This document shows positions 3,011-24,515 of a DNA stretch of 64,000 bases, piece after piece (positions within the stretch are counted from its first letter, which is position 1; each line of letters opens with the position of its first letter). The notes under the pieces were generated by a model that was given only the letters and a program-made list of their open reading frames with translations, was not told where the DNA came from and made no database searches. The stretch is from Escherichia coli (lineage in GTDB: Bacteria; Pseudomonadota; Gammaproteobacteria; Enterobacterales; Enterobacteriaceae). Location of the stretch: the NCBI RefSeq assembly GCF_048403405.1, contig NZ_CP183129.1, one strand, 5' to 3'. Made by a program: the position numbers and the translations under genes.

Positions 3011-3685
3011 TCACCTGTATAACCAGTACGCGGTGCTTTCTACATTCGCACCACTTTGTATGTATCGTTTTAGCGCGGCGGTGTTGCCCATTTGGGTCGC
3101 CACCCGCAAAGTTGTTTTACCGCGAGCATACGCCCAGTTTAGCGCCGTTTGCATCAGCTCAGCACCTGCACCTCGTCCAGCCAGCAGGCCAATTCGCGCA
3201 TCTGTCGCATTGAGTTCCCGTAAAGAGACATAGCCGCGAATATCGCCGGACGCCGCACGTAAAATCAGACATTGATGATCAAAGGTGCCGCGCACGGCAT
3301 TTTCAATCCACTGTGCATAAAAGCGTCCGCTGGCGTCAGGCGCATACCACGGCGCACGAAAACGGCTTTGCGCAAATGCGGCGCTGGCTAACTGACGTAA
3401 TGCGGGAATATCGGTCTCTTGTGCCACTACAGCACCACTATCACTGACATTGTTCACGGGTAGCGCCAAATCAACTTCACCTTCTACCAGGGAGAATCCC
3501 AGCTGTTGCAGGGCATCCAGTTCACCCGTATTTGATGCCGCAATTTTGGCCTGTACCCGTGACCACGGCGCTAAGGCGTCTGACGTCAGGAGCGGTGCTT
3601 CAGGCGTGATGCGCACGATGGCGCTGTTAACACCAAAGAAGGCGTTTTCCCAGGTTAGTGGCTCAATACTGGCGCGGAAGGGCAC
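3011..3685 (-). CDS. wecD: dTDP-fucosamine acetyltransferase WecD
   Basis: 224-aa ORF with GTG start at 3683-3685; C-terminal GNAT-like region; 23-nt overlap with rffH 3' end. Start choice uncertain. Confidence 0.8.
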
Positions 3686-4544
3686 GAAGTAACTCCAGCA
3701 GATATTGGCCGTAGCCAGTTTTCGCCAGCGAGCTGGCGGCGCGCTTCACGCCTTCGTCATCAAGCCAGCCGTTACGCCAGGCGATCTCTTCCAGGCAGGC
3801 AATCTTAAAGCCCTGGCGTTTTTCCACCGTCTGTACAAAGGTGCTGGCTTCAATCAGGCTGTCGTGAGTGCCAGTATCCAGCCAGGCAAATCCGCGCCCG
3901 AGCAGTTCAACGGTCAGGTTGCCCGCCTCGAGGTACATCTGGTTGATGGAGGTAATCTCCAGTTCACCACGCTCCGACGGCTTCACCAGCTTTGCGTACT
4001 CCACGACTTTACTGTCGTAGAAATAAAGCCCGGTCACCGCCCAGTTTGACTTCGGCTGTTTTGGCTTTTCTTCCAGCGAGATAGCGCGGAAATTGTCGTC
4101 AAACTCCACGACGCCAAAGCGTTCCGGATCCATCACCTGATAGCCAAATACCGTCGCGCCTTGCGTGCGCGCCGCAACATGACGCAACTTCGGACTGAAG
4201 CCCTGTCCGAAGAAGATGTTATCGCCCAGCACCAGACAAGAAGGTTCACCGTTGAGGAAGGTTTCACCGATGATAAAGGCCTGCGCCAGACCGTCCGGAC
4301 TGGGCTGTTCGGCATATTCCAGCTGGATACCGAACTCACTACCATCGCCCAGCAGGCGCTGGAAATAACCTTTATCTTCCGGCGTAGTGATGATGAGAAT
4401 TTCGCGGATACCGGCCAGCATCAGCACCGACAGCGGATAGTAAATCATTGGCTTATCGTAAATCGGCAACAGTTGCTTCGATACGCCGCGCGTAATCGGA
4501 TGCAATCGGGTGCCGGAACCGCCCGCCAGGATAATACCTTTCAT
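3663..4544 (-). CDS. rffH: glucose-1-phosphate thymidylyltransferase RffH
   Basis: 293-aa [21 protein letters not shown]... (nucleotidyltransferase G-x-G-T-R motif); ATG at 4542-4544. Confidence 0.93.
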
Positions 4545-17677: not shown

Positions 17678-18127
17678 GTGGCGATTAATTTCAGCCCCAA
17701 GGTTGGTGAAATACTGGAATGCAACTTTGGTAACTATCCTGTTAGCCAGAATGGACAGTTCAGCACGACGTATTACGATGGCCGCATTCCACCTGAGATG
17801 ATAAAAAATAGGTTGGTTGTCGTGCTCAACGGAAAAATTAATGGCAACGCATGTATCGTCGTTCCATTATCAACCACTCGCGACCATGACAAGTTAAATC
17901 GTGGAATGCATGTTGAAATAGCCAGTAATGTTATCAATGACATGCATTTCTTTGATCAGCAGATACGTTGGGCTAAAGCCGACCTGGTACAACAAGTCAG
18001 TCGAAACCGATTAAACAGAGCAAGGACTTATCGGGGGTATCTTAATCAATGTTTGCCACATGAGTTGGTTGCAGACATACAGAGGGCAGTCATCAAGTCA
18101 ATCAATGCCATATCGCTCATAAATTGA
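17678..18127 (+). CDS. yifN: PemK/MazF-like toxin-family protein (yifN-like), intact
   Basis: ORF-track frame 17636-18127; best start is GTG 17678 preceded by SD taaggagagg (17661-17670); sequence VAINFSPKVGEILECNF...RLVVVLNG...CIVVPLSTT resembles the PemK/MazF fold pattern; visibly A+T-rich relative to flanks. Confidence 0.6.
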   Translation: MAINFSPKVGEILECNFGNYPVSQNGQFSTTYYDGRIPPEMIKNRLVVVLNGKINGNACIVVPLSTTRDHDKLNRGMHVEIASNVINDMHFFDQQIRWAKADLVQQVSRNRLNRARTYRGYLNQCLPHELVADIQRAVIKSINAISLIN

Positions 18128-18605: not shown

Positions 18606-20081
18606 TTAACCCGCAACAGCAATGCGTTTCATATCTGTCATATAGCCGCGCAGTTTCTTACCTACCTGCTCAATCGCATGACTGCGAATCGCTTCGTTCA
18701 CATCACGCAACTGCGCGTTATCTACCGCACCTTCCGGAATAGCTTTACCCAGGTCGCCCGGTTGCAGCTCTGCCATAAACGGTTTCAGCAGCGGCACACA
18801 AGCGTAAGAGAACAGATAGTTACCGTACTCAGCGGTATCAGAGATAACCACGTTCATTTCGTACAGACGCTTACGGGCGATGGTGTTGGCAATCAGCGGC
18901 AGTTCGTGCAGTGATTCATAGTAAGCAGACTCTTCAATGATGCCGGAATCAACCATGGTTTCAAACGCCAGCTCAACGCCCGCTTTCACCATCGCGATCA
19001 TCAGTACGCCTTTATCGAAGTACTCCTGCTCGCCGATTTTGCCTTCATATTGCGGCGCGGTTTCGAACGCGGTTTTGCCGGTCTCTTCACGCCAGGTCAG
19101 CAGTTTCTTATCATCGTTGGCCCAGTCCGCCATCATACCGGAAGAGAATTCGCCGGAGATGATGTCATCCATATGTTTCTGGAACAGGGGTGCCATGATC
19201 TCTTTCAGCTGTTCAGAAAGCGCGTAAGCACGCAGTTTCGCCGGGTTAGAGAGACGGTCCATCATCAGCGTGATGCCGCCCTGTTTCAGTGCTTCGGTGA
19301 TGGTTTCCCAACCGAACTGAATCAGTTTTTCTGCGTATGCCGGATCGGTGCCTTCTTCCACCAGTTTGTCGAAGCACAGCAGAGAACCAGCCTGCAACAT
19401 ACCGCACAGGATGGTTTGCTCGCCCATCAGGTCAGATTTCACTTCCGCAACAAAAGAGGATTCCAGCACGCCCGCACGGTGACCGCCGGTTGCAGCCGCC
19501 CATGCTTTAGCGATCGCCATGCCTTCGCCTTTCGGATCGTTTTCCGGGTGAACGGCAATCAGCGTCGGTACGCCGAATCCACGTTTGTATTCTTCACGCA
19601 CTTCGGTGCCTGGGCATTTCGGCGCAACCATCACCACGGTGATGTCTTTACGGATCTGCTCTCCCACTTCGACGATGTTGAAACCGTGCGAGTAACCCAG
19701 CGCCGCGCCGTCTTTCATCAGTGGCTGTACGGTGCGCACTACATCAGAGTGCTGCTTGTCCGGCGTCAGGTTAACCACCAGATCCGCCTGCGGGATCAGT
19801 TCTTCGTAAGTACCAACTTTAAAACCGTTTTCGGTCGCTTTACGCCAGGATGCGCGCTTTTCGGCAATCGCTTCTTTACGCAGAGCGTAGGAGATATCGA
19901 GACCAGAATCACGCATGTTCAGGCCCTGGTTCAGACCCTGTGCGCCACAGCCGACGATGACTACTTTTTTACCCTGAAGGTAGCTCGCGCCATCGGCGAA
20001 TTCATCGCGCCCCATAAAGCGACATTTGCCCAGCTGTGCCAGCTGCTGGCGCAGATTCAGTGTATTGAAGTAGTTAGCCAT
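18606..20081 (-). CDS. ilvC: ketol-acid reductoisomerase IlvC
   Basis: 491 aa from ATG at 20079-20081 ([23 protein letters not shown]...); track ORF has a 74-codon upstream extension that I reject. Confidence 0.96.
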
Positions 20082-20230
20082 GGTGATTCCTCGTGATGTT
20101 GTGCTTCTTATTGTTCGGTTCGCGTTTGCGAGATTGAATTCACTATATGACAGGAAATTTATTGCGGAAATTGATATATTCACAACGTCACATTGCAATT
20201 TCTGCAACGTCAACATTGAGGGCTGCGCCA
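20082..20230. promoter_or_regulatory. ilvC-ilvY divergent promoter/operator region
   Basis: 149-bp divergent intergenic region between ilvC ATG and ilvY TTG start; the position of the IlvY operators is known from the literature, not mapped here. Confidence 0.6.
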
Positions 20231-21121
20231 TTGGATTTACGCGATCTGAAAACCTTCCTGCATCTGGCGGAAAGCCGCCATTTTGGCCGCAGCGCACGGG
20301 CAATGCACGTTAGCCCGTCTACGCTTTCGCGACAAATACAGCGCCTGGAAGAAGATCTCGGTCAGCCGCTGTTTGTGCGCGATAACCGCACGGTAACGCT
20401 GACGGAAGCGGGCGAAGAACTGCGCGTTTTCGCCCAGCAAACGCTGTTGCAATATCAGCAATTGCGCCACACCATCGACCAGCAAGGACCGTCGCTCTCT
20501 GGCGAATTACATATCTTCTGCTCGGTGACCGCTGCCTACAGCCATCTGCCGCCGATTCTGGATCGCTTCCGCGCGGAACACCCGTCGGTGGAGATTAAAC
20601 TCACTACTGGTGATGCGGCAGATGCAATGGAAAAAGTGGTCACTGGCGAAGCGGACCTGGCGATTGCCGGGAAGCCGGAGACGCTACCCGGCGCAGTGGC
20701 GTTTTCGATGCTGGAGAATCTGGCAGTGGTGCTGATTGCCCCCGCGCTGCCCTGCCCGGTGCGTAATCAGGTGTCGGTAGAGAAGCCGGACTGGTCAACG
20801 GTGCCGTTTATCATGGCCGATCAGGGGCCGGTACGCCGCCGCATTGAACTGTGGTTTCGACGCAATAAAATCAGCAACCCGATGATTTACGCCACGGTTG
20901 GCGGACATGAAGCGATGGTATCGATGGTGGCGCTCGGCTGTGGCGTGGCGCTGTTGCCGGAAGTGGTGCTGGAAAACAGCCCCGAACCGGTGCGGAACCG
21001 CGTGATGATTTTAGAGCGCAGCGATGAGAAAACGCCGTTTGAGCTGGGCGTGTGTGCGCAAAAAAAGCGGCTGCATGAGCCGCTGATTGAGGCATTCTGG
21101 AAGATTTTGCCGAACCACTAA
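20231..21121 (+). CDS. ilvY: LysR-family transcriptional regulator IlvY
   Basis: ORF frame 20147-21121; the canonical N-terminus (M)[39 protein letters not shown] (HTH) begins at TTG 20231-20233. Confidence 0.9.
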
Positions 21122-22662
21122 CCCGCCAAAAAGAACCTGAACGCCGGGTTATTGGTTTCGTCGTGGCAATCGTAGCCCAGCTCATTCAGCCGGGTTTCGA
21201 AATCCGGTTCATGGTCGCCAAGTTCGAACGCCGCCAGTACGCGCCCGTAGTCGGTACCGTGGCTGCGATAATGGAACAAAGAAATGTTCCAGTGCGTACC
21301 CAGCGTGTTGAGGAAGCGCAACAGCGCCCCCGGTGACTCCGGGAATTCGAAGCTGTAGAGGCGTTCCTGCAACGGATGCGATGGACGCCCGCCAACCATA
21401 TAGCGCACATGCAGCTTCGCCATTTCGTCGTCGGAGAGATCAACCACGCTGTAGCCACCGTCGTTGAGCATCTGCAAAATTTCTTTGCGCTCTTCGAGAC
21501 CGCGGCTCAGGCGCACGCCGACAAAAATGCAGGCGTTTTTGGCATCAGCAAAGCGGTAGTTGAACTCGGTGACCGAGCGCCCACCAAGTAACTGGCAGAA
21601 TTTGAGGAAGCTGCCCTTTTCTTCCGGAATGGTCACCGCCAGTAACGCTTCACGCTGTTCGCCCAGTTCGCAGCGTTCCGAGACGTAGCGCAGACCGTGA
21701 AAGTTCACGTTAGCACCGGAAAGAATATGCGCCAGCCGTTCACCGCGAATGTTGTTCTGAGCGATGTATTTTTTCATCCCCGCCAGCGCCAGCGCGCCGG
21801 AGGGTTCCGCCACTGCGCGCACATCTTCGAACAGGTCTTTCATCGCCGCACAGATGGCATCGCTATCGACGGTGATGATGTCGTCAAGATACTCCTGGCA
21901 TAAACGGAAGGTTTCATCGCCGATGCGTTTTACCGCGACGCCTTCAGCAAACAGCCCCACGCGGGGCAGATCAACGGGATGACCTGCATCAAGTGCCGCT
22001 TTCAGGCAGGCGGAATCTTCCGCTTCCACGGCGATCACTTTGATTTGCGGCATCAATTGTTTGATCAGTACCGCGACGCCCGCCGCCAGACCGCCGCCGC
22101 CGACCGGTACAAATACGCGGTCGAGATGGGCGTCCTGCTGGAGCAGTTCCAGCGCCAGCGTGCCTTGCCCGGCGATCACCATCGGATGGTCGAACGGCGG
22201 TACCCAGGTGAAACCCTGCTGCTGTGACAGTTCGATCGCTTTCGCTTTCGCTTCATCGAAATTTGCGCCGTGAAGCAGCACTTCGCCGCCAAAGCCGCGC
22301 ACCGCATCAACTTTGATATCGGCGGTGGCGGTTGGCATGACGATCAGCGCCTTCACGCCTAACCGTGCGGAAGAAAACGCGACGCCCTGCGCGTGGTTAC
22401 CCGCAGAAGCGGTGATCACGCCGTGCGCTTTTTGTTCTTCCGTCAGGCCCGCCATCATGGCGTATGCGCCGCGCAGCTTAAAGCTGTGTACTGGCTGGCG
22501 ATCTTCGCGCTTCACCAGAATCACGTTATCAAGACGCGACGACAGTTTTTCCATTTTCTGTAGCGGCGTGACCTGCGCCGCTTCGTAGACCGGCGCGCGC
22601 AGCACCGCTCTTAAATATTCGGCACCTTCAGGGGCACCGGACAGGGGTTGTGAGTCTGCCAT
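21118..22662 (-). CDS. ilvA: threonine deaminase (threonine dehydratase, biosynthetic) IlvA
   Basis: 514 aa from the second ATG (22660-22662): MADSQPLSGAPEGAEYLRAV...; 3' end overlaps the ilvY stop by 4 nt. Confidence 0.96.
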   Translation of the reverse strand: MADSQPLSGAPEGAEYLRAVLRAPVYEAAQVTPLQKMEKLSSRLDNVILVKREDRQPVHSFKLRGAYAMMAGLTEEQKAHGVITASAGNHAQGVAFSSARLGVKALIVMPTATADIKVDAVRGFGGEVLLHGANFDEAKAKAIELSQQQGFTWVPPFDHPMVIAGQGTLALELLQQDAHLDRVFVPVGGGGLAAGVAVLIKQLMPQIKVIAVEAEDSACLKAALDAGHPVDLPRVGLFAEGVAVKRIGDETFRLCQEYLDDIITVDSDAICAAMKDLFEDVRAVAEPSGALALAGMKKYIAQNNIRGERLAHILSGANVNFHGLRYVSERCELGEQREALLAVTIPEEKGSFLKFCQLLGGRSVTEFNYRFADAKNACIFVGVRLSRGLEERKEILQMLNDGGYSVVDLSDDEMAKLHVRYMVGGRPSHPLQERLYSFEFPESPGALLRFLNTLGTHWNISLFHYRSHGTDYGRVLAAFELGDHEPDFETRLNELGYDCHDETNNPAFRFFLAG

Positions 22663-22664
22663 CA

Positions 22665-24515
22665 TTAACCCCCCAGTTTCGATTTATCGCGCACCGCGCC
22701 TTTGTCGGCGCTGGTTGCCAGGCTGGCGTAGGCACGCAGCGCAAAGGAAACCTGGCGTTCACGGTTTTTCGGCGTCCAGGCTTTGTCGCCACGAGCTTCC
22801 TGCGCTTCACGACGCGCCGCCAGTTCGGCATCGCTTACCTGTAACTGAATGCCACGGTTCGGAATGTCGATAGCGATCAGGTCGCCGTCTTCAATCAGGC
22901 CAATGCTACCGCCGCTTGCCGCTTCCGGTGAGACGTGGCCGATAGAAAGGCCAGAGGTACCGCCAGAGAAACGACCGTCGGTGATCAGCGCACAGGCTTT
23001 ACCGAGACCCATTGATTTCAGGAAGCTGGTTGGGTAGAGCATTTCCTGCATCCCCGGACCGCCTTTCGGGCCTTCATAGCGGATCACCACCACATCGCCC
23101 GCGACAACCTTGCCGCCGAGAATCGCTTCTACCGCGTCGTCCTGGCTTTCGTATACTTTCGCCGGGCCGGTGAATTTGAGGATGCTGTCATCCACGCCTG
23201 CGGTTTTCACGATGCAGCCGTTTTCCGCAAAGTTACCGTAGAGTACCGCCAAGCCGCCGTCTTTGCTGTAGGCGTGTTCCAGCGAGCGGATACAGCCGTT
23301 TGCGCGATCGTCATCGAGAGAATCCCAACGGCAATCCTGCGAGAATGCCTGGGTGGTACGAATGCCCGCCGGGCCAGCGCGGAACATATTTTTTACCGCG
23401 TCATCCTGGGTCAGCATAACGTCGTATTGTTCCAGCGTTTGCGGCAACGTCAGGCCAAGTACGTTTTTCACATCACGGTTCAGTAATCCCGCACGATCCA
23501 GCTCGCCGAGAATACCGATAACACCACCAGCACGATGAACATCTTCCATATGGTATTTCTGGGTGCTCGGCGCAACTTTACACAGCTGCGGAACCTTGCG
23601 GGAAAGCTTATCGATATCACTCATGGTGAAGTCGATTTCCGCTTCCTGCGCCGCCGCCAGCAGGTGAAGTACGGTGTTGGTAGAGCCGCCCATCGCGATA
23701 TCGAGCGTCATGGCGTTTTCAAACGCCGCCTTACTGGCGATATTACGCGGCAGTGCACTTTCGTCATTTTGCTCGTAGTAACGTTTGGTCAATTCAACAA
23801 TGCGTTTACCGGCATTGAGGAACAGCTGCTTACGGTCGGCGTGAGTTGCCAGCAGCGAGCCGTTGCCCGGCTGCGACAGGCCCAGCGCTTCGGTCAGGCA
23901 GTTCATTGAGTTAGCGGTAAACATCCCGGAGCAGGAACCGCAGGTCGGACACGCGGAACGTTCAACCTGATCGCTCTGGGAGTCAGAAACTTTCGGGTCT
24001 GCGCCCTGGATCATCGCATCAACCAGATCGAGCTTAATGATCTGATCGGACAGTTTGGTTTTCCCGGCTTCCATCGGTCCGCCGGAAACAAAGATCACCG
24101 GAATATTCAGGCGCAGGGAAGCCATCAGCATCCCCGGGGTGATTTTGTCGCAGTTAGAGATGCAGACCATGGCGTCGGCGCAGTGAGCGTTGACCATATA
24201 CTCAACGGAATCAGCGATCAGTTCGCGAGATGGCAGTGAATAAAGCATCCCCCCGTGGCCCATGGCAATCCCATCATCCACCGCAATGGTGTTGAACTCT
24301 TTGGCAACGCCGCCAGCCGCTTCAATTTGTTCGGCGACCAGTTTACCGAGATCGCGCAGATGGACGTGACCCGGTACAAATTGGGTGAACGAGTTCACAA
24401 CCGCGATAATCGGCTTACCGAAATCGGCGTCGGTCATTCCGGTGGCGCGCCACAGCGCACGAGCACCCGCCATATTACGACCATGAGTGGTGGTGGCGGA
24501 ACGGTACTTAGGCAT
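22665..24515 (-). CDS. ilvD: dihydroxy-acid dehydratase IlvD
   Basis: 616-aa [30 protein letters not shown]...; ATG at 24513-24515. Confidence 0.97.

What the first reader, a model, noticed from the sequence alone, without database searches (positions are those of the whole stretch)
21118..21121. ilvY and ilvA stop codons overlap on opposite strands
ilvY (plus) ends with TAA at 21119-21121 and ilvA (minus) ends with TAG at 21118-21120 (read as plus-strand cta). The convergent genes share 4 nt and have no intergenic terminator space, which implies overlapping 3' UTRs.
Basis: seen in the sequence. Interest (0 to 1): 0.15.

Follow-up and report, generated by a model that had tools for sequence, protein, structure and literature searches.

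The report
ilvY–ilvA overlapping stops, embedded terminator
The two convergent genes ilvY and ilvA really do share four bases (CTAA) at their stop codons in this E. coli strain, an ordinary and ancient arrangement in enteric bacteria, and the transcription terminator of the ilvA operon lies inside the end of the ilvY coding sequence.

Summary
ilvY (+, 20231-21121) ends in TAA at 21119-21121. ilvA (-, 21118-22662) ends in TAG, read as CTA at 21118-21120. The shared bases are CTAA. RefSeq annotates the same ends in a 100%-identical strain.

The overlap is not chance. The same -4 junction (CTAA, TTAA or CTAG) occurs in 32 of the 80 Enterobacteriaceae species loci fetched and in about 43% of complete E. 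coli genomes. K-12 and about 53% of E. coli carry a 58-nt REP-bearing insert exactly between the two stops. Other genera carry different REP types at the same point.

A terminator-like hairpin plus U-run for ilvA mRNA (21084-21060, - strand) lies inside ilvY codons 277-285. It is the most synonymously constrained stretch of ilvY (0.18 vs a mean of 1.02 bits; 0 of 5000 permutations). The ilvA 3' end shows no such constraint. Published K-12 data place a Rho-dependent stop about 860 nt into antisense ilvA.

Overlapping ilvA/ilvY transcription was published for K-12 in 1989. This is already known and of low interest. Its modest extras are a REP insertion hotspot and an in-frame A_AAA_AAG heptamer forced by the terminator.

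The parts
20231..21121 (+). ilvY CDS (LysR-type activator of ilvC), 296 aa, stop TAA at 21119-21121
   Evidence: ORF list and translation. RefSeq annotation of the identical strain, locus 3232-4122 + 16999.
21118..22662 (-). ilvA CDS (biosynthetic threonine deaminase, last gene of ilvGMEDA), 514 aa, stop TAG = CTA at 21118-21120
21118..21121 (.). Shared tetranucleotide CTAA. Base 1 is the wobble base of IlvY His296 and the complement of the third base of the ilvA stop. Base 4 is the third base of the ilvY stop and the complement of the wobble base of IlvA Gly514.
   Evidence: Variants CTAA/TTAA/CTAG in other species.
21066..21084 (-). Hairpin AGCGGCU-CAUGC-AGCCGCU (7 bp, 5 G-C, about -10.6 kcal/mol) in ilvA-sense RNA. 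It starts 33 nt after the ilvA stop and lies inside ilvY codons 279-285.
   Evidence: Terminator scan and MFE fold. The stem is 7/7 paired in 58/58 species with convergent ilvA.
21060..21065 (-). U-run (6 U, 7 with the last stem base) directly after the hairpin. The predicted ilvGMEDA 3' end is about 21058-21060, giving a 3' UTR of about 58 nt that is wholly antisense to ilvY codons 277-296.
   Evidence: The T-run is 6 in 54/58 species with adjacent ilvA and is 4 in 15/22 species where ilvA is not adjacent.
21061..21067 (+). In-frame A_AAA_AAG heptamer in ilvY (codons 277-279, CAA AAA AAG). It is the coding-strand image of the U-run and a potential -1 slippery site.
   Evidence: Heptamer properties from the PMC4066793 supplement.
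21122..21926 (+). Inferred untranslated read-through of ilvY transcription, antisense to the ilvA 3' part. The end point is extrapolated from the K-12 Rho-termination region at 3956067.
   Evidence: PMC7815308 Suppl. file 2. No synonymous constraint in the ilvA 3' end. Inference only for this strain.

Best explanation
This is the compact form, probably ancestral for the family, of the convergent ilvGMEDA / ilvY junction. The two ORFs end tail-to-tail in the tetranucleotide [C/T]TA[A/G], so there is no intergenic DNA, and the signals that end each transcript lie inside the other gene. ilvA direction: RNA polymerase passes the ilvA stop (21120-21118), transcribes 33 nt, then a 7-bp G+C-rich hairpin (21084-21066) and a U-run (21065-21060). 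It terminates intrinsically at about 21060, inside ilvY codons 277-285. Because this element must also encode Q-K-K-R-L-H-E-P-L, its synonymous sites are frozen. ilvY direction: there is no conserved terminator. After the ribosome leaves at 21121 the RNA is untranslated antisense-ilvA RNA, and it is most likely ended diffusely by Rho some hundreds of nt downstream. The mature 3' ends are therefore complementary over at least 62 nt. The 4-nt overlap itself has no demonstrated function. It is a stable state because every base is constrained by a stop or a conserved codon. REP elements have repeatedly inserted exactly there, as in K-12. Shown: sequence, annotation, conservation, synonymous constraint. 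Inferred: actual 3' ends and Rho dependence in this strain.
For: Overlap and annotation. Terminator-like site found by the scan and present in the MFE fold. ilvY codons 276-284 are the lowest 9-codon window of synonymous entropy in the whole gene (0.181 vs a mean of 1.02 bits; 0/5000 permutations reach it; also true in the 32 overlap-only species). Rare codon CGG (Arg280), CCG, GAG, AAG, AAA and CAA are invariant or nearly so, while unpaired third positions (Leu281 in the loop, Leu285 outside the stem) vary. The stem is 7/7 paired in 58/58 species with convergent ilvA, and an 8th A-U/G-U pair is present in 42/58. Where ilvA is more than 400 nt away or absent (22 species), the T-run is 4 in 15 species and 1-2 in two more, the stem has G-U pairs or mismatches, and mean dG is -8.4 vs about -10.8. 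ilvA shows no comparable constraint anywhere (minimum window 0.65) and none at its 3' end. K-12 has a Rho termination region on the ilvY strand at 3956067, antisense to ilvA (Rho score 3.7, p 2e-6). Overlapping convergent 3' ends are the norm in E. coli (276/370 convergent operons, mean 286 nt), and ilvA/ilvY is cited as a classic case. The -4 junction occurs in 32 of the 80 species loci fetched and in 2335/5426 complete E. coli genomes.
Against: There are no transcript 3'-end data for this strain. The curated K-12 Term-seq list (PMC7815308 Suppl. 1) contains no ilvA 3' end at all, so the embedded terminator is not confirmed by that data set, and K-12 has a weaker U-run (UUUUUCUG) plus the REP. 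The stem never varies in the adjacent group, so there is no covariation there. There is only one compensatory G-C to A-T change, in two 'far' species. The whole 96-nt 3' region does not fold better than shuffles (z = -0.5). The adjacent/far contrast is not phylogenetically independent. The invariance of the third base of codon 282 (CAT/TAT, the central loop base) is not explained by a simple terminator model.
Confidence: 0.8

Rival explanations
1. The overlap in this lineage is secondary. The E. coli ancestor had the REP-containing spacer (K-12 state), and this lineage lost it by precise excision, regenerating a -4 junction.
For: The K-12-type 58-nt insert is in about 53% of complete E. coli genomes. 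An orthologous copy is present in Pseudocitrobacter faecalis, so the insert is old. From my own knowledge, not tested here: elements moved by IS200/IS605-type (RAYT) transposases can excise precisely.
Against: The same -4 junction is found in more than 15 genera, while the inserts elsewhere belong to different REP types and orientations. That fits independent insertions into an ancestral -4 site. Two distinct -4 alleles (CTAA 1201 genomes, TTAA 1134) exist in E. coli. The direction within E. coli was not resolved here.
Confidence: 0.15
2. The frozen A_AAA_AAG plus hairpin in ilvY is a programmed -1 ribosomal frameshift site. It would make a C-terminally truncated IlvY (residues 1-279 + AAA, stop TGA), as in dnaX.
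For: The heptamer is in the correct X_XXY_YYZ frame. This heptamer is strongly under-represented in E. coli genes (z = -10.1) yet is invariant here. The -1 frame stops after 3 codons at a TGA that depends on the invariant T of codon 282 (CAT/TAT in all adjacent species).
Against: The hairpin begins inside the heptamer (spacer about -2 nt), whereas, from my own knowledge of known frameshift sites such as dnaX, stimulatory structures lie several nt downstream of the heptamer. No SD-like stimulator lies upstream. Without a stimulator the heptamer gives about 0.29% frameshifting. The run and stem decay where ilvA is no longer the convergent neighbour, which frameshifting does not predict. K-12 has G_AAA_AAG. 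ilvY is not among the 69 conserved candidate clusters of PMC4066793.
Confidence: 0.04
3. The arrangement is a functional regulatory device. Convergent transcription (polymerase collision, or antisense pairing of the 3' ends followed by RNase III cleavage) couples ilvGMEDA expression to ilvY expression, or the hairpin acts as a collision-dependent bidirectional terminator.
For: The 3' ends must be complementary over at least 62 nt. Collision-driven bidirectional termination at convergent pairs that requires a nascent stem-loop has been described in E. coli. The hairpin is a perfect palindrome, so it forms on both strands.
Against: On the + strand the hairpin is followed by GAUUGAGGCAUUCUGG (no U-run) and lies inside the translated ilvY ORF. 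Termination there would truncate ilvY. About half of E. coli separate the genes with a REP without known consequence. No expression data were available to test the coupling.
Confidence: 0.12
4. Annotation artefact: one of the two ORFs really ends elsewhere, so there is no overlap.
For: None found.
Against: Both C-terminal peptides and stop positions are conserved in dozens of genera, and the RefSeq annotation agrees.
Confidence: 0.01

Closest known systems
[quoted passage not shown]
   Same: Same genes, same convergent layout, same hairpin inside ilvY (K-12: AGCGGCUCAUGUAGCCGCU), and overlapping transcription.
   Different: K-12 has a 58-nt REP-bearing insert exactly between the stops. This gives a 51-nt gap, an IlvY of 297 aa ending PNHK, and a U-run interrupted as UUUUUCUG. 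The window has no insert and the ORFs overlap by 4 nt. I could not read the 1989 paper, so which 3' ends it mapped is not verified here.
Tail-to-tail 4-nt gene overlaps of bacteria ([C/T]TA[A/G])
   Same: Two stop codons on opposite strands are offset by one base. From my own knowledge, this is the commonest phase of convergent overlaps in bacterial genomes.
   Different: Nothing distinctive. Here the state is documented as conserved across a family and as repeatedly broken by REP insertion.
Overlapping 3' ends of convergent operons (Conway et al. 2014, PMC4161252) and bidirectional terminators (Ju et al. 2019, as described in bioRxiv 10.1101/2022.10.23.513370)
   Same: Convergent transcripts with complementary 3' ends. 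276 of 370 convergent operons overlap, by 286 nt on average.
   Different: The element here is unidirectional, with a U-run only on the ilvA-sense strand, and lies inside a coding sequence rather than in an intergenic region.
REP/BIME elements between convergent genes
   Same: About 60% of E. coli REPs lie between convergent genes and about 30% of convergent intergenic regions hold one. The ilvA-ilvY junction is such a site in K-12 and many other enterics.
   Different: The window itself has no REP at this junction. The REP tail motif CTTATCMGGCCTAC is also absent from the whole 64-kb window.

Membership tests
Convergent 4-nt overlapping gene pair | Both ORFs are real genes with their true stops at these positions | tested here: met
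   RefSeq annotation. Conserved C-termini ...ILPNH* and ...FRFFLAG* across genera.
Convergent 4-nt overlapping gene pair | Stop codons on opposite strands offset by one base, in the tetranucleotide [C/T]TA[A/G] | tested here: met
   CTAA at 21118-21121. Only CTAA, TTAA and CTAG are seen in the 33 junctions examined, i.e. 32 fetched species loci plus the window.
Intrinsic (Rho-independent) terminator, ilvA-sense | G+C-rich stem-loop immediately followed by a U-run | tested here: met
   7-bp stem with 5 G-C pairs, 5-nt loop, then 6 U (7 with the last stem base). Conserved in 54-58 of 58 species with adjacent ilvA.
Intrinsic (Rho-independent) terminator, ilvA-sense | Located downstream of the stop codon, clear of the terminating ribosome | tested here: met
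   33 nt lie between the ilvA stop (21118) and the first stem base (21084).
Intrinsic (Rho-independent) terminator, ilvA-sense | Evidence of selection on the element beyond the protein code | tested here: met
   Lowest synonymous-entropy window of ilvY, with 0/5000 permutations reaching it. The element decays when ilvA is not adjacent.
Intrinsic (Rho-independent) terminator, ilvA-sense | Transcript 3' ends map to the U-run; termination in vitro without Rho | not testable with these tools
   No RNA data exist for this strain. The K-12 curated Term-seq list has no ilvA 3' end.
Bidirectional terminator | U-run after the hairpin on both strands (A-run upstream and U-run downstream) | tested here: not met
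   On the + strand the hairpin is followed by GATTGAGGCATTCTGG, and that stretch is translated ilvY.
REP / BIME element at the junction | Imperfect palindrome with a conserved ...CTTATC(A/C)GGCCTAC tail, repeated at many intergenic sites | tested here: not met
   There is no insert in the window and the tail motif is absent from the window. It is present in K-12 and 16 other loci, at two different intergenic sites.
Programmed -1 ribosomal frameshift site | X_XXY_YYZ heptamer in the zero frame | tested here: met
   A_AAA_AAG at 21061-21067 in the ilvY frame.
Programmed -1 ribosomal frameshift site | Stimulatory structure several nt downstream of the heptamer, or an SD-like sequence upstream | tested here: not met
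   The hairpin starts at 21066, inside the heptamer. The upstream sequence GGCGTGTGTGCGC has no SD-like motif.
Programmed -1 ribosomal frameshift site | Frameshift product detected | not testable with these tools
   Needs a reporter assay or proteomics.
Rho-dependent termination of ilvY read-through | Bicyclomycin-sensitive loss of coverage downstream of the gene | tested here: inconclusive
   This was reported for K-12 at 3956067, on the ilvY strand and antisense to ilvA. It has not been measured in a REP-less strain. The C>G skew of the + strand after 21121 is only slight.

The most novel reading that the evidence does not exclude
The totally invariant CAA AAA AAG CGG CTN CAT GAG CCG in ilvY may be more than a terminator lodged in a coding sequence. 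It could be a dual-use element: the ilvGMEDA terminator on one strand, and on the other a dnaX-like -1 frameshift/stop site (A_AAA_AAG, then AAA-TGA) or a polymerase-collision point. Either would couple IlvY dosage or form to ilvGMEDA transcription. The invariant T of codon 282, which keeps the -1-frame TGA, is the one feature the plain terminator model does not explain.
Probability: 0.06. Interest if true: 0.55.

Novelty: already known. Interest (0 to 1): 0.15.

Why it matters
It matters little in itself. Tail-to-tail 4-nt overlaps and overlapping 3' ends of convergent operons are common in E. coli, and ilvA/ilvY was an early published example.

The checked picture is useful in three ways:

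- **Annotation.** The K-12 reference does not represent this junction for about 43% of E. coli.
- **A clean natural example.** This is an intrinsic terminator forced to live inside a coding sequence. Its synonymous sites are frozen across a bacterial family, and it imposes an otherwise avoided slippery A_AAA_AAG heptamer on the host gene.
- **A natural experiment.** The junction is a recurrent REP insertion site, with IS621 then targeting the REP. It therefore offers natural isogenic-like REP+ / REP- alleles for testing what REPs do to convergent transcripts.

Tried and rejected
- **Rfam.** A scan of 20000-22800 at E <= 1 gave no match.
- **ilvY-sense terminator inside ilvA.** The scan gave only weak candidates (21134-21150). 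ilvA shows no synonymous constraint there. The 146-nt downstream RNA folds no better than shuffles (z = -0.2). I rejected this as a conserved element.
- **Folding the 96-nt ilvA 3' region.** The hairpin is present in the MFE fold but the overall z-score is -0.5. Whole-region folding energy is therefore uninformative.
- **The 1989 paper.** It is not held. Full-text searches for ilvY with terminator, Sameshima, frameshifting or ilvGMEDA returned only the Conway 2014 citation or nothing.
- **Published 3'-end maps.** The Adams 2021 supplements list no ilvA 3' end. Supplements of Conway 2014, Dar and Sorek 2018, and the 2022 Term-seq paper are not held.
- **First 44-nt junction query.** It undercounted overlapped E. 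coli genomes (1201), because a central C/T difference blocks the 28-nt megablast word. A spread sample exposed this, and a second query with the TTAA allele corrected it.
- **REP in the window.** None was found, with either the full K-12 core or the tail motif.
- **Composition skew as a rut-site indicator.** Only a slight C excess was seen, which is not informative.
- **More distant outgroups** (Yersinia, Serratia, Vibrio). I did not search these. The one genome scan returned only Enterobacteriaceae among its best 80 loci, and I judged a further 13-CPU-hour protein search not worth it for this question.

Full report
**1. The observation**

The window reads ...ccgaaccact aacccgcc... at 21110-21127, so C21118-T21119-A21120-A21121.

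- The + strand ORF 20147..21121 ends with TAA at 21119-21121.
- The - strand ORF 21118..22665 ends with TAG, the reverse complement of CTA at 21118-21120.
- The 2.8-kb region is 100% identical to E. coli ST2747 and other strains.
- In RefSeq NZ_CP007394.1, ilvY corresponds to window 20231-21121 (+) and ilvA to window 21118-22662 (-), which is exactly the 4-nt overlap described.
- Neighbours are ilvC (divergent from ilvY) and ilvD-ilvE-ilvM-ilvG upstream of ilvA.

**2. The K-12 reference is different**

In MG1655, ilvA ends at 3956875 and ilvY ends at 3956927, leaving a 51-nt gap. Alignment shows a 58-nt insert in K-12 exactly between the stops:

GGGAAAAATGCCTGATAGCGCTTCGCTTATCAGGCCTACCCGCGCGACAACGTCATTT

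- It carries an imperfect palindrome ending ...CTTATCAGGCCTAC. From my own knowledge, that is the hallmark tail of REP sequences.
- The same tail motif recurs at a second intergenic site (ilvC-ppiC) in many of the fetched loci, so it is a dispersed repeat.
- The insert gives K-12 IlvY one extra residue (…PNHK, 297 aa) and a new TGA stop.

**3. Frequency in E. coli**

Counts are out of 5426 complete genomes:

| Junction type | Genomes |
|---|---|
| Contiguous junction, CTAA | 1201 |
| Contiguous junction, TTAA (a central C/T difference hid these from the first megablast query) | 1134 |
| K-12-type insert, at least 80% covered | 2888 |
| K-12-type insert, only partly covered | 184 |

- The two contiguous classes together make 2335 genomes, about 43%. 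The intact insert is in about 53%.
- In the two partly covered cases examined, an IS621 (IS110-family) transposase gene sits inside the REP.
- An even-step sample of 60 genomes agrees: 27 contiguous, 23 with a 58-nt gap, 10 with only half matched.

**4. Frequency across species**

One scan of species-representative genomes with IlvY returned 80 Enterobacteriaceae loci. I located both stops in each.

- **Overlapped (-4).** 32 of the 80 loci, plus the window, have exactly -4. They come from many genera: Klebsiella pneumoniae, Citrobacter sedlakii and freundii, Kosakonia, Enterobacter, Atlantibacter, Yokenella, Silvania, Trabulsiella, Raoultella, Pluralibacter, Lelliottia, Phytobacter and Leclercia.
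- **Tetranucleotides.** CTAA 19, TTAA 8 and CTAG 6. All keep both stops. Bases 1 and 4 are wobble positions of the last sense codon of one gene and of the stop of the other.
- **Short gaps.** 24 of the 80 loci (25 counting K-12) have gaps of 4-97 nt, nearly all made of REP-like palindromes of different kinds and orientations:
  - Z-like GCCTGATAAGCG..GCGC.ATCAGGC;
  - Y-like GCCGGATGGCGGCGCAAGCGCCTTATCCGGCCTAC;
  - an Enterobacter type AGCCGGGTGGCGCTACGCTTACCCGGCCTAC;
  - compound pairs of these.
- **Small duplication.** One locus (Kosakonia oryzendophytica) has an 8-nt tandem duplication.
- **Genes in between.** About 20 loci have other genes between ilvY and ilvA, or ilvA not nearby.

The simplest reading is that -4 is the ancestral state of the family and that REPs have entered this zero-length slot several times independently. 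The direction of change within E. coli itself was not resolved. Pseudocitrobacter faecalis carries an insert orthologous to K-12's, so the insert is old or has been exchanged between genera.

**5. Where transcription ends: ilvA direction**

The consensus scan found one good terminator-like site on the - strand. It is AGCGGCTCATGCAGCCGCT (21084 to 21066; 7 bp, 5 of them G-C; 5-nt loop) followed by T6, or T7 counting the last stem base. The hairpin is present in the minimum-free-energy fold of the RNA downstream of ilvA.

- It starts 33 nt after the ilvA stop.
- It lies entirely inside ilvY codons 277-285 (CAA AAA AAG CGG CTG CAT GAG CCG CTG = QKKRLHEPL).

I then aligned ilvY codon by codon in 56 species where ilvA is directly convergent (gap of 100 nt or less).

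- **Synonymous constraint.** Mean synonymous-codon entropy over the gene is 1.02 bits. The lowest 9-codon window of the whole gene is codons 276-284, at 0.18 bits. None of 5000 permutations of codon entropies reached this. The result holds in the 32 overlap-only species (0.207).
- **Invariant codons.** CAA, AAA, AAG, CGG (a rare Arg codon), CAT and CCG are invariant, and GAG is 98%.
- **Positions that vary.** The third base of Leu281 (first loop base) and of Leu285 (just outside the stem) vary.
- **Eighth pair.** Leu285 is CTT in 71% of species, which adds an 8th A-U pair. An 8th pair is present in 42/58 species.
- **Stem and T-run.** All 58 adjacent species have 7/7 stem pairs, and 54/58 have the full T-run.
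- **Species without adjacent ilvA.** In 22 species where ilvA is more than 400 nt away or absent, the T-run is 4 in 15 and only 1-2 in two more. The stem acquires G-U pairs and mismatches. Mean hairpin energy rises from about -10.8 to -8.4 kcal/mol. The 8th pair is present in only 4/22.
- **Covariation.** Two of those 22 species show a compensatory G-C to A-T change.

Caveats: the stem is invariant in the adjacent group, so there is no covariation there. The adjacent/far contrast is also not phylogenetically independent.

I conclude that this is very probably the intrinsic terminator of the ilvGMEDA operon lodged in the ilvY coding sequence. That gives a 3' UTR of about 58 nt, wholly antisense to the last 20 ilvY codons.

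**6. Where transcription ends: ilvY direction**

- The same synonymous-site analysis of ilvA (54 species) shows no unusual constraint. The minimum window is 0.65 bits, at codons 373-381. The last 60 codons are ordinary.
- The weak + strand candidates (21134-21150; the palindrome near 21190) are therefore not conserved elements.
- ilvY mRNA must pass its own stop at 21121. After that it is untranslated RNA antisense to ilvA.
- In K-12, Adams et al. (PMC7815308, Supplementary file 2) list a Rho termination region on the ilvY strand at 3956067, classified as antisense to ilvA. Coverage upstream/downstream was 62/22 without bicyclomycin and 86/113 with it. The Rho score is 3.70 and p = 2.3e-6.
- That position is about 860 nt beyond the K-12 ilvY stop and corresponds to about 21926 in the window.
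- Their curated Term-seq list has no ilvA 3' end, so the embedded terminator is not confirmed by that data set.

The inference for this strain is diffuse Rho-dependent termination inside antisense ilvA. The two RNAs would then be complementary over at least 21060-21121 (62 nt), and probably over much more.

**7. Comparison with what is known**

- Conway et al. 2014 (PMC4161252) found that 276 of 370 convergent E. coli operons have overlapping 3' ends, averaging 286 nt. [quoted passage not shown] I could not obtain the 1989 paper.
- Tail-to-tail 4-nt overlaps are, from my own knowledge, the standard phase of convergent overlaps.
- REPs sit preferentially between convergent genes. About 60% of REPs do so, and about 30% of convergent intergenic regions hold one (bioRxiv 10.64898/2026.03.23.713779).
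- The element is not a bidirectional terminator in the sense of Ju et al. (as summarised). The + strand has no U-run after the hairpin, and the site is translated there.
- There is no Rfam match.

**8. A side issue worth recording**

On the coding strand the U-run is read as CAA AAA AAG. This is an in-frame A_AAA_AAG heptamer, the dnaX/IS-type -1 slippery sequence.

- In the Sharma et al. 2014 supplement it is strongly under-represented in E. coli genes (z = -10.1). The three efficiency columns for it read 0.29, 4.3 and 39%. I take these to be without and with stimulators, but the column heads were not shown.
- A -1 shift here would read AAA AAA GCG GCT GCA TGA, giving IlvY 1-279 + AAA.
- The T of codon 282 that creates this TGA is invariant (CAT or TAT in every adjacent species). 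The plain terminator model does not explain that.

Four points argue against a programmed frameshift:

- The hairpin begins inside the heptamer, so the spacing is wrong for a stimulator.
- There is no upstream SD-like motif.
- The run decays when ilvA is not adjacent.
- ilvY is not among the conserved candidates of that study.

I regard the heptamer as a by-product of hosting the terminator, and give about 4-6% to a functional frameshift or coupling role.

**9. Verdict**

What this check adds:

- The overlap is the conserved, probably ancestral state of Enterobacteriaceae and of about 43% of E. coli, while the K-12 reference carries a REP insert.
- The ilvGMEDA terminator is embedded in ilvY with frozen synonymous sites.
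- ilvY has no conserved terminator of its own.

Interest is 0.15.

Noticed in passing
L083 (NZ_CP116169.1) and L084 (NZ_CP049979.1), at the junction equivalent to window 21118-21121: In some E. coli the K-12-type REP between ilvA and ilvY is itself interrupted by an IS621 (IS110-family) element. 184 genomes show only partial coverage of the insert query. From my own knowledge, IS621 is reported to target REP sequences.
   Followed up: partly
window 20231-22662 vs L002 (K-12), L003 (E. coli SCPM-O-B-8794), L008 (Pseudocitrobacter faecalis): The ilvY/ilvA haplotypes within E. coli are unusually deep. Window vs K-12 is 95.5/94.0% nt identity, and window vs another E. coli is 91.4/92.0%. Pseudocitrobacter ilvA is as close to the window (92.0%) as that second E. 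coli is, and it carries the same 58-nt REP insert as K-12. This suggests recombination or exchange of this region between lineages.
   Followed up: partly
window 1-64000: The REP tail motif CTTATC(A/C)GGCCTAC does not occur anywhere in the 64-kb window, even with one mismatch. It is present at the ilvC-ppiC and/or ilvY-ilvA junctions of 17 related loci.
   Followed up: no
window 17678-18127 (+): An intact PemK/MazF-family toxin gene lies between rep and ppiC (annotated in the identical strain). No obvious antitoxin ORF is present in the roughly 200 nt upstream.
   Followed up: partly
window 21061-21067 (+): An in-frame A_AAA_AAG slippery heptamer in ilvY, invariant across species with adjacent ilvA. 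The -1 frame gives AAA then TGA. It was treated as a rival explanation and judged a by-product of the embedded terminator.
   Followed up: partly
L034, L036, L056 (Citrobacter spp.) about 3889-3926; L028 (Kosakonia oryzendophytica) about 3889-3898: In three Citrobacter loci the REP tail GGCCTAC itself supplies the ilvA stop codon (CTA). In L028 an 8-nt tandem duplication (TAACCGAC|TAACCGGC) separates the two stops by 4 nt.
   Followed up: no
K-12 NC_000913.3 3957809 (- strand), equivalent to about window 20242: Adams et al. Term-seq lists a strong RNA 3' end 11 nt inside the ilvY ORF. ilvY codons 1-9 are also the second most synonymously constrained window of the gene (0.41 bits). This may reflect the overlapping ilvY/ilvC promoter-operator region or a 5' attenuation event.
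   Followed up: no
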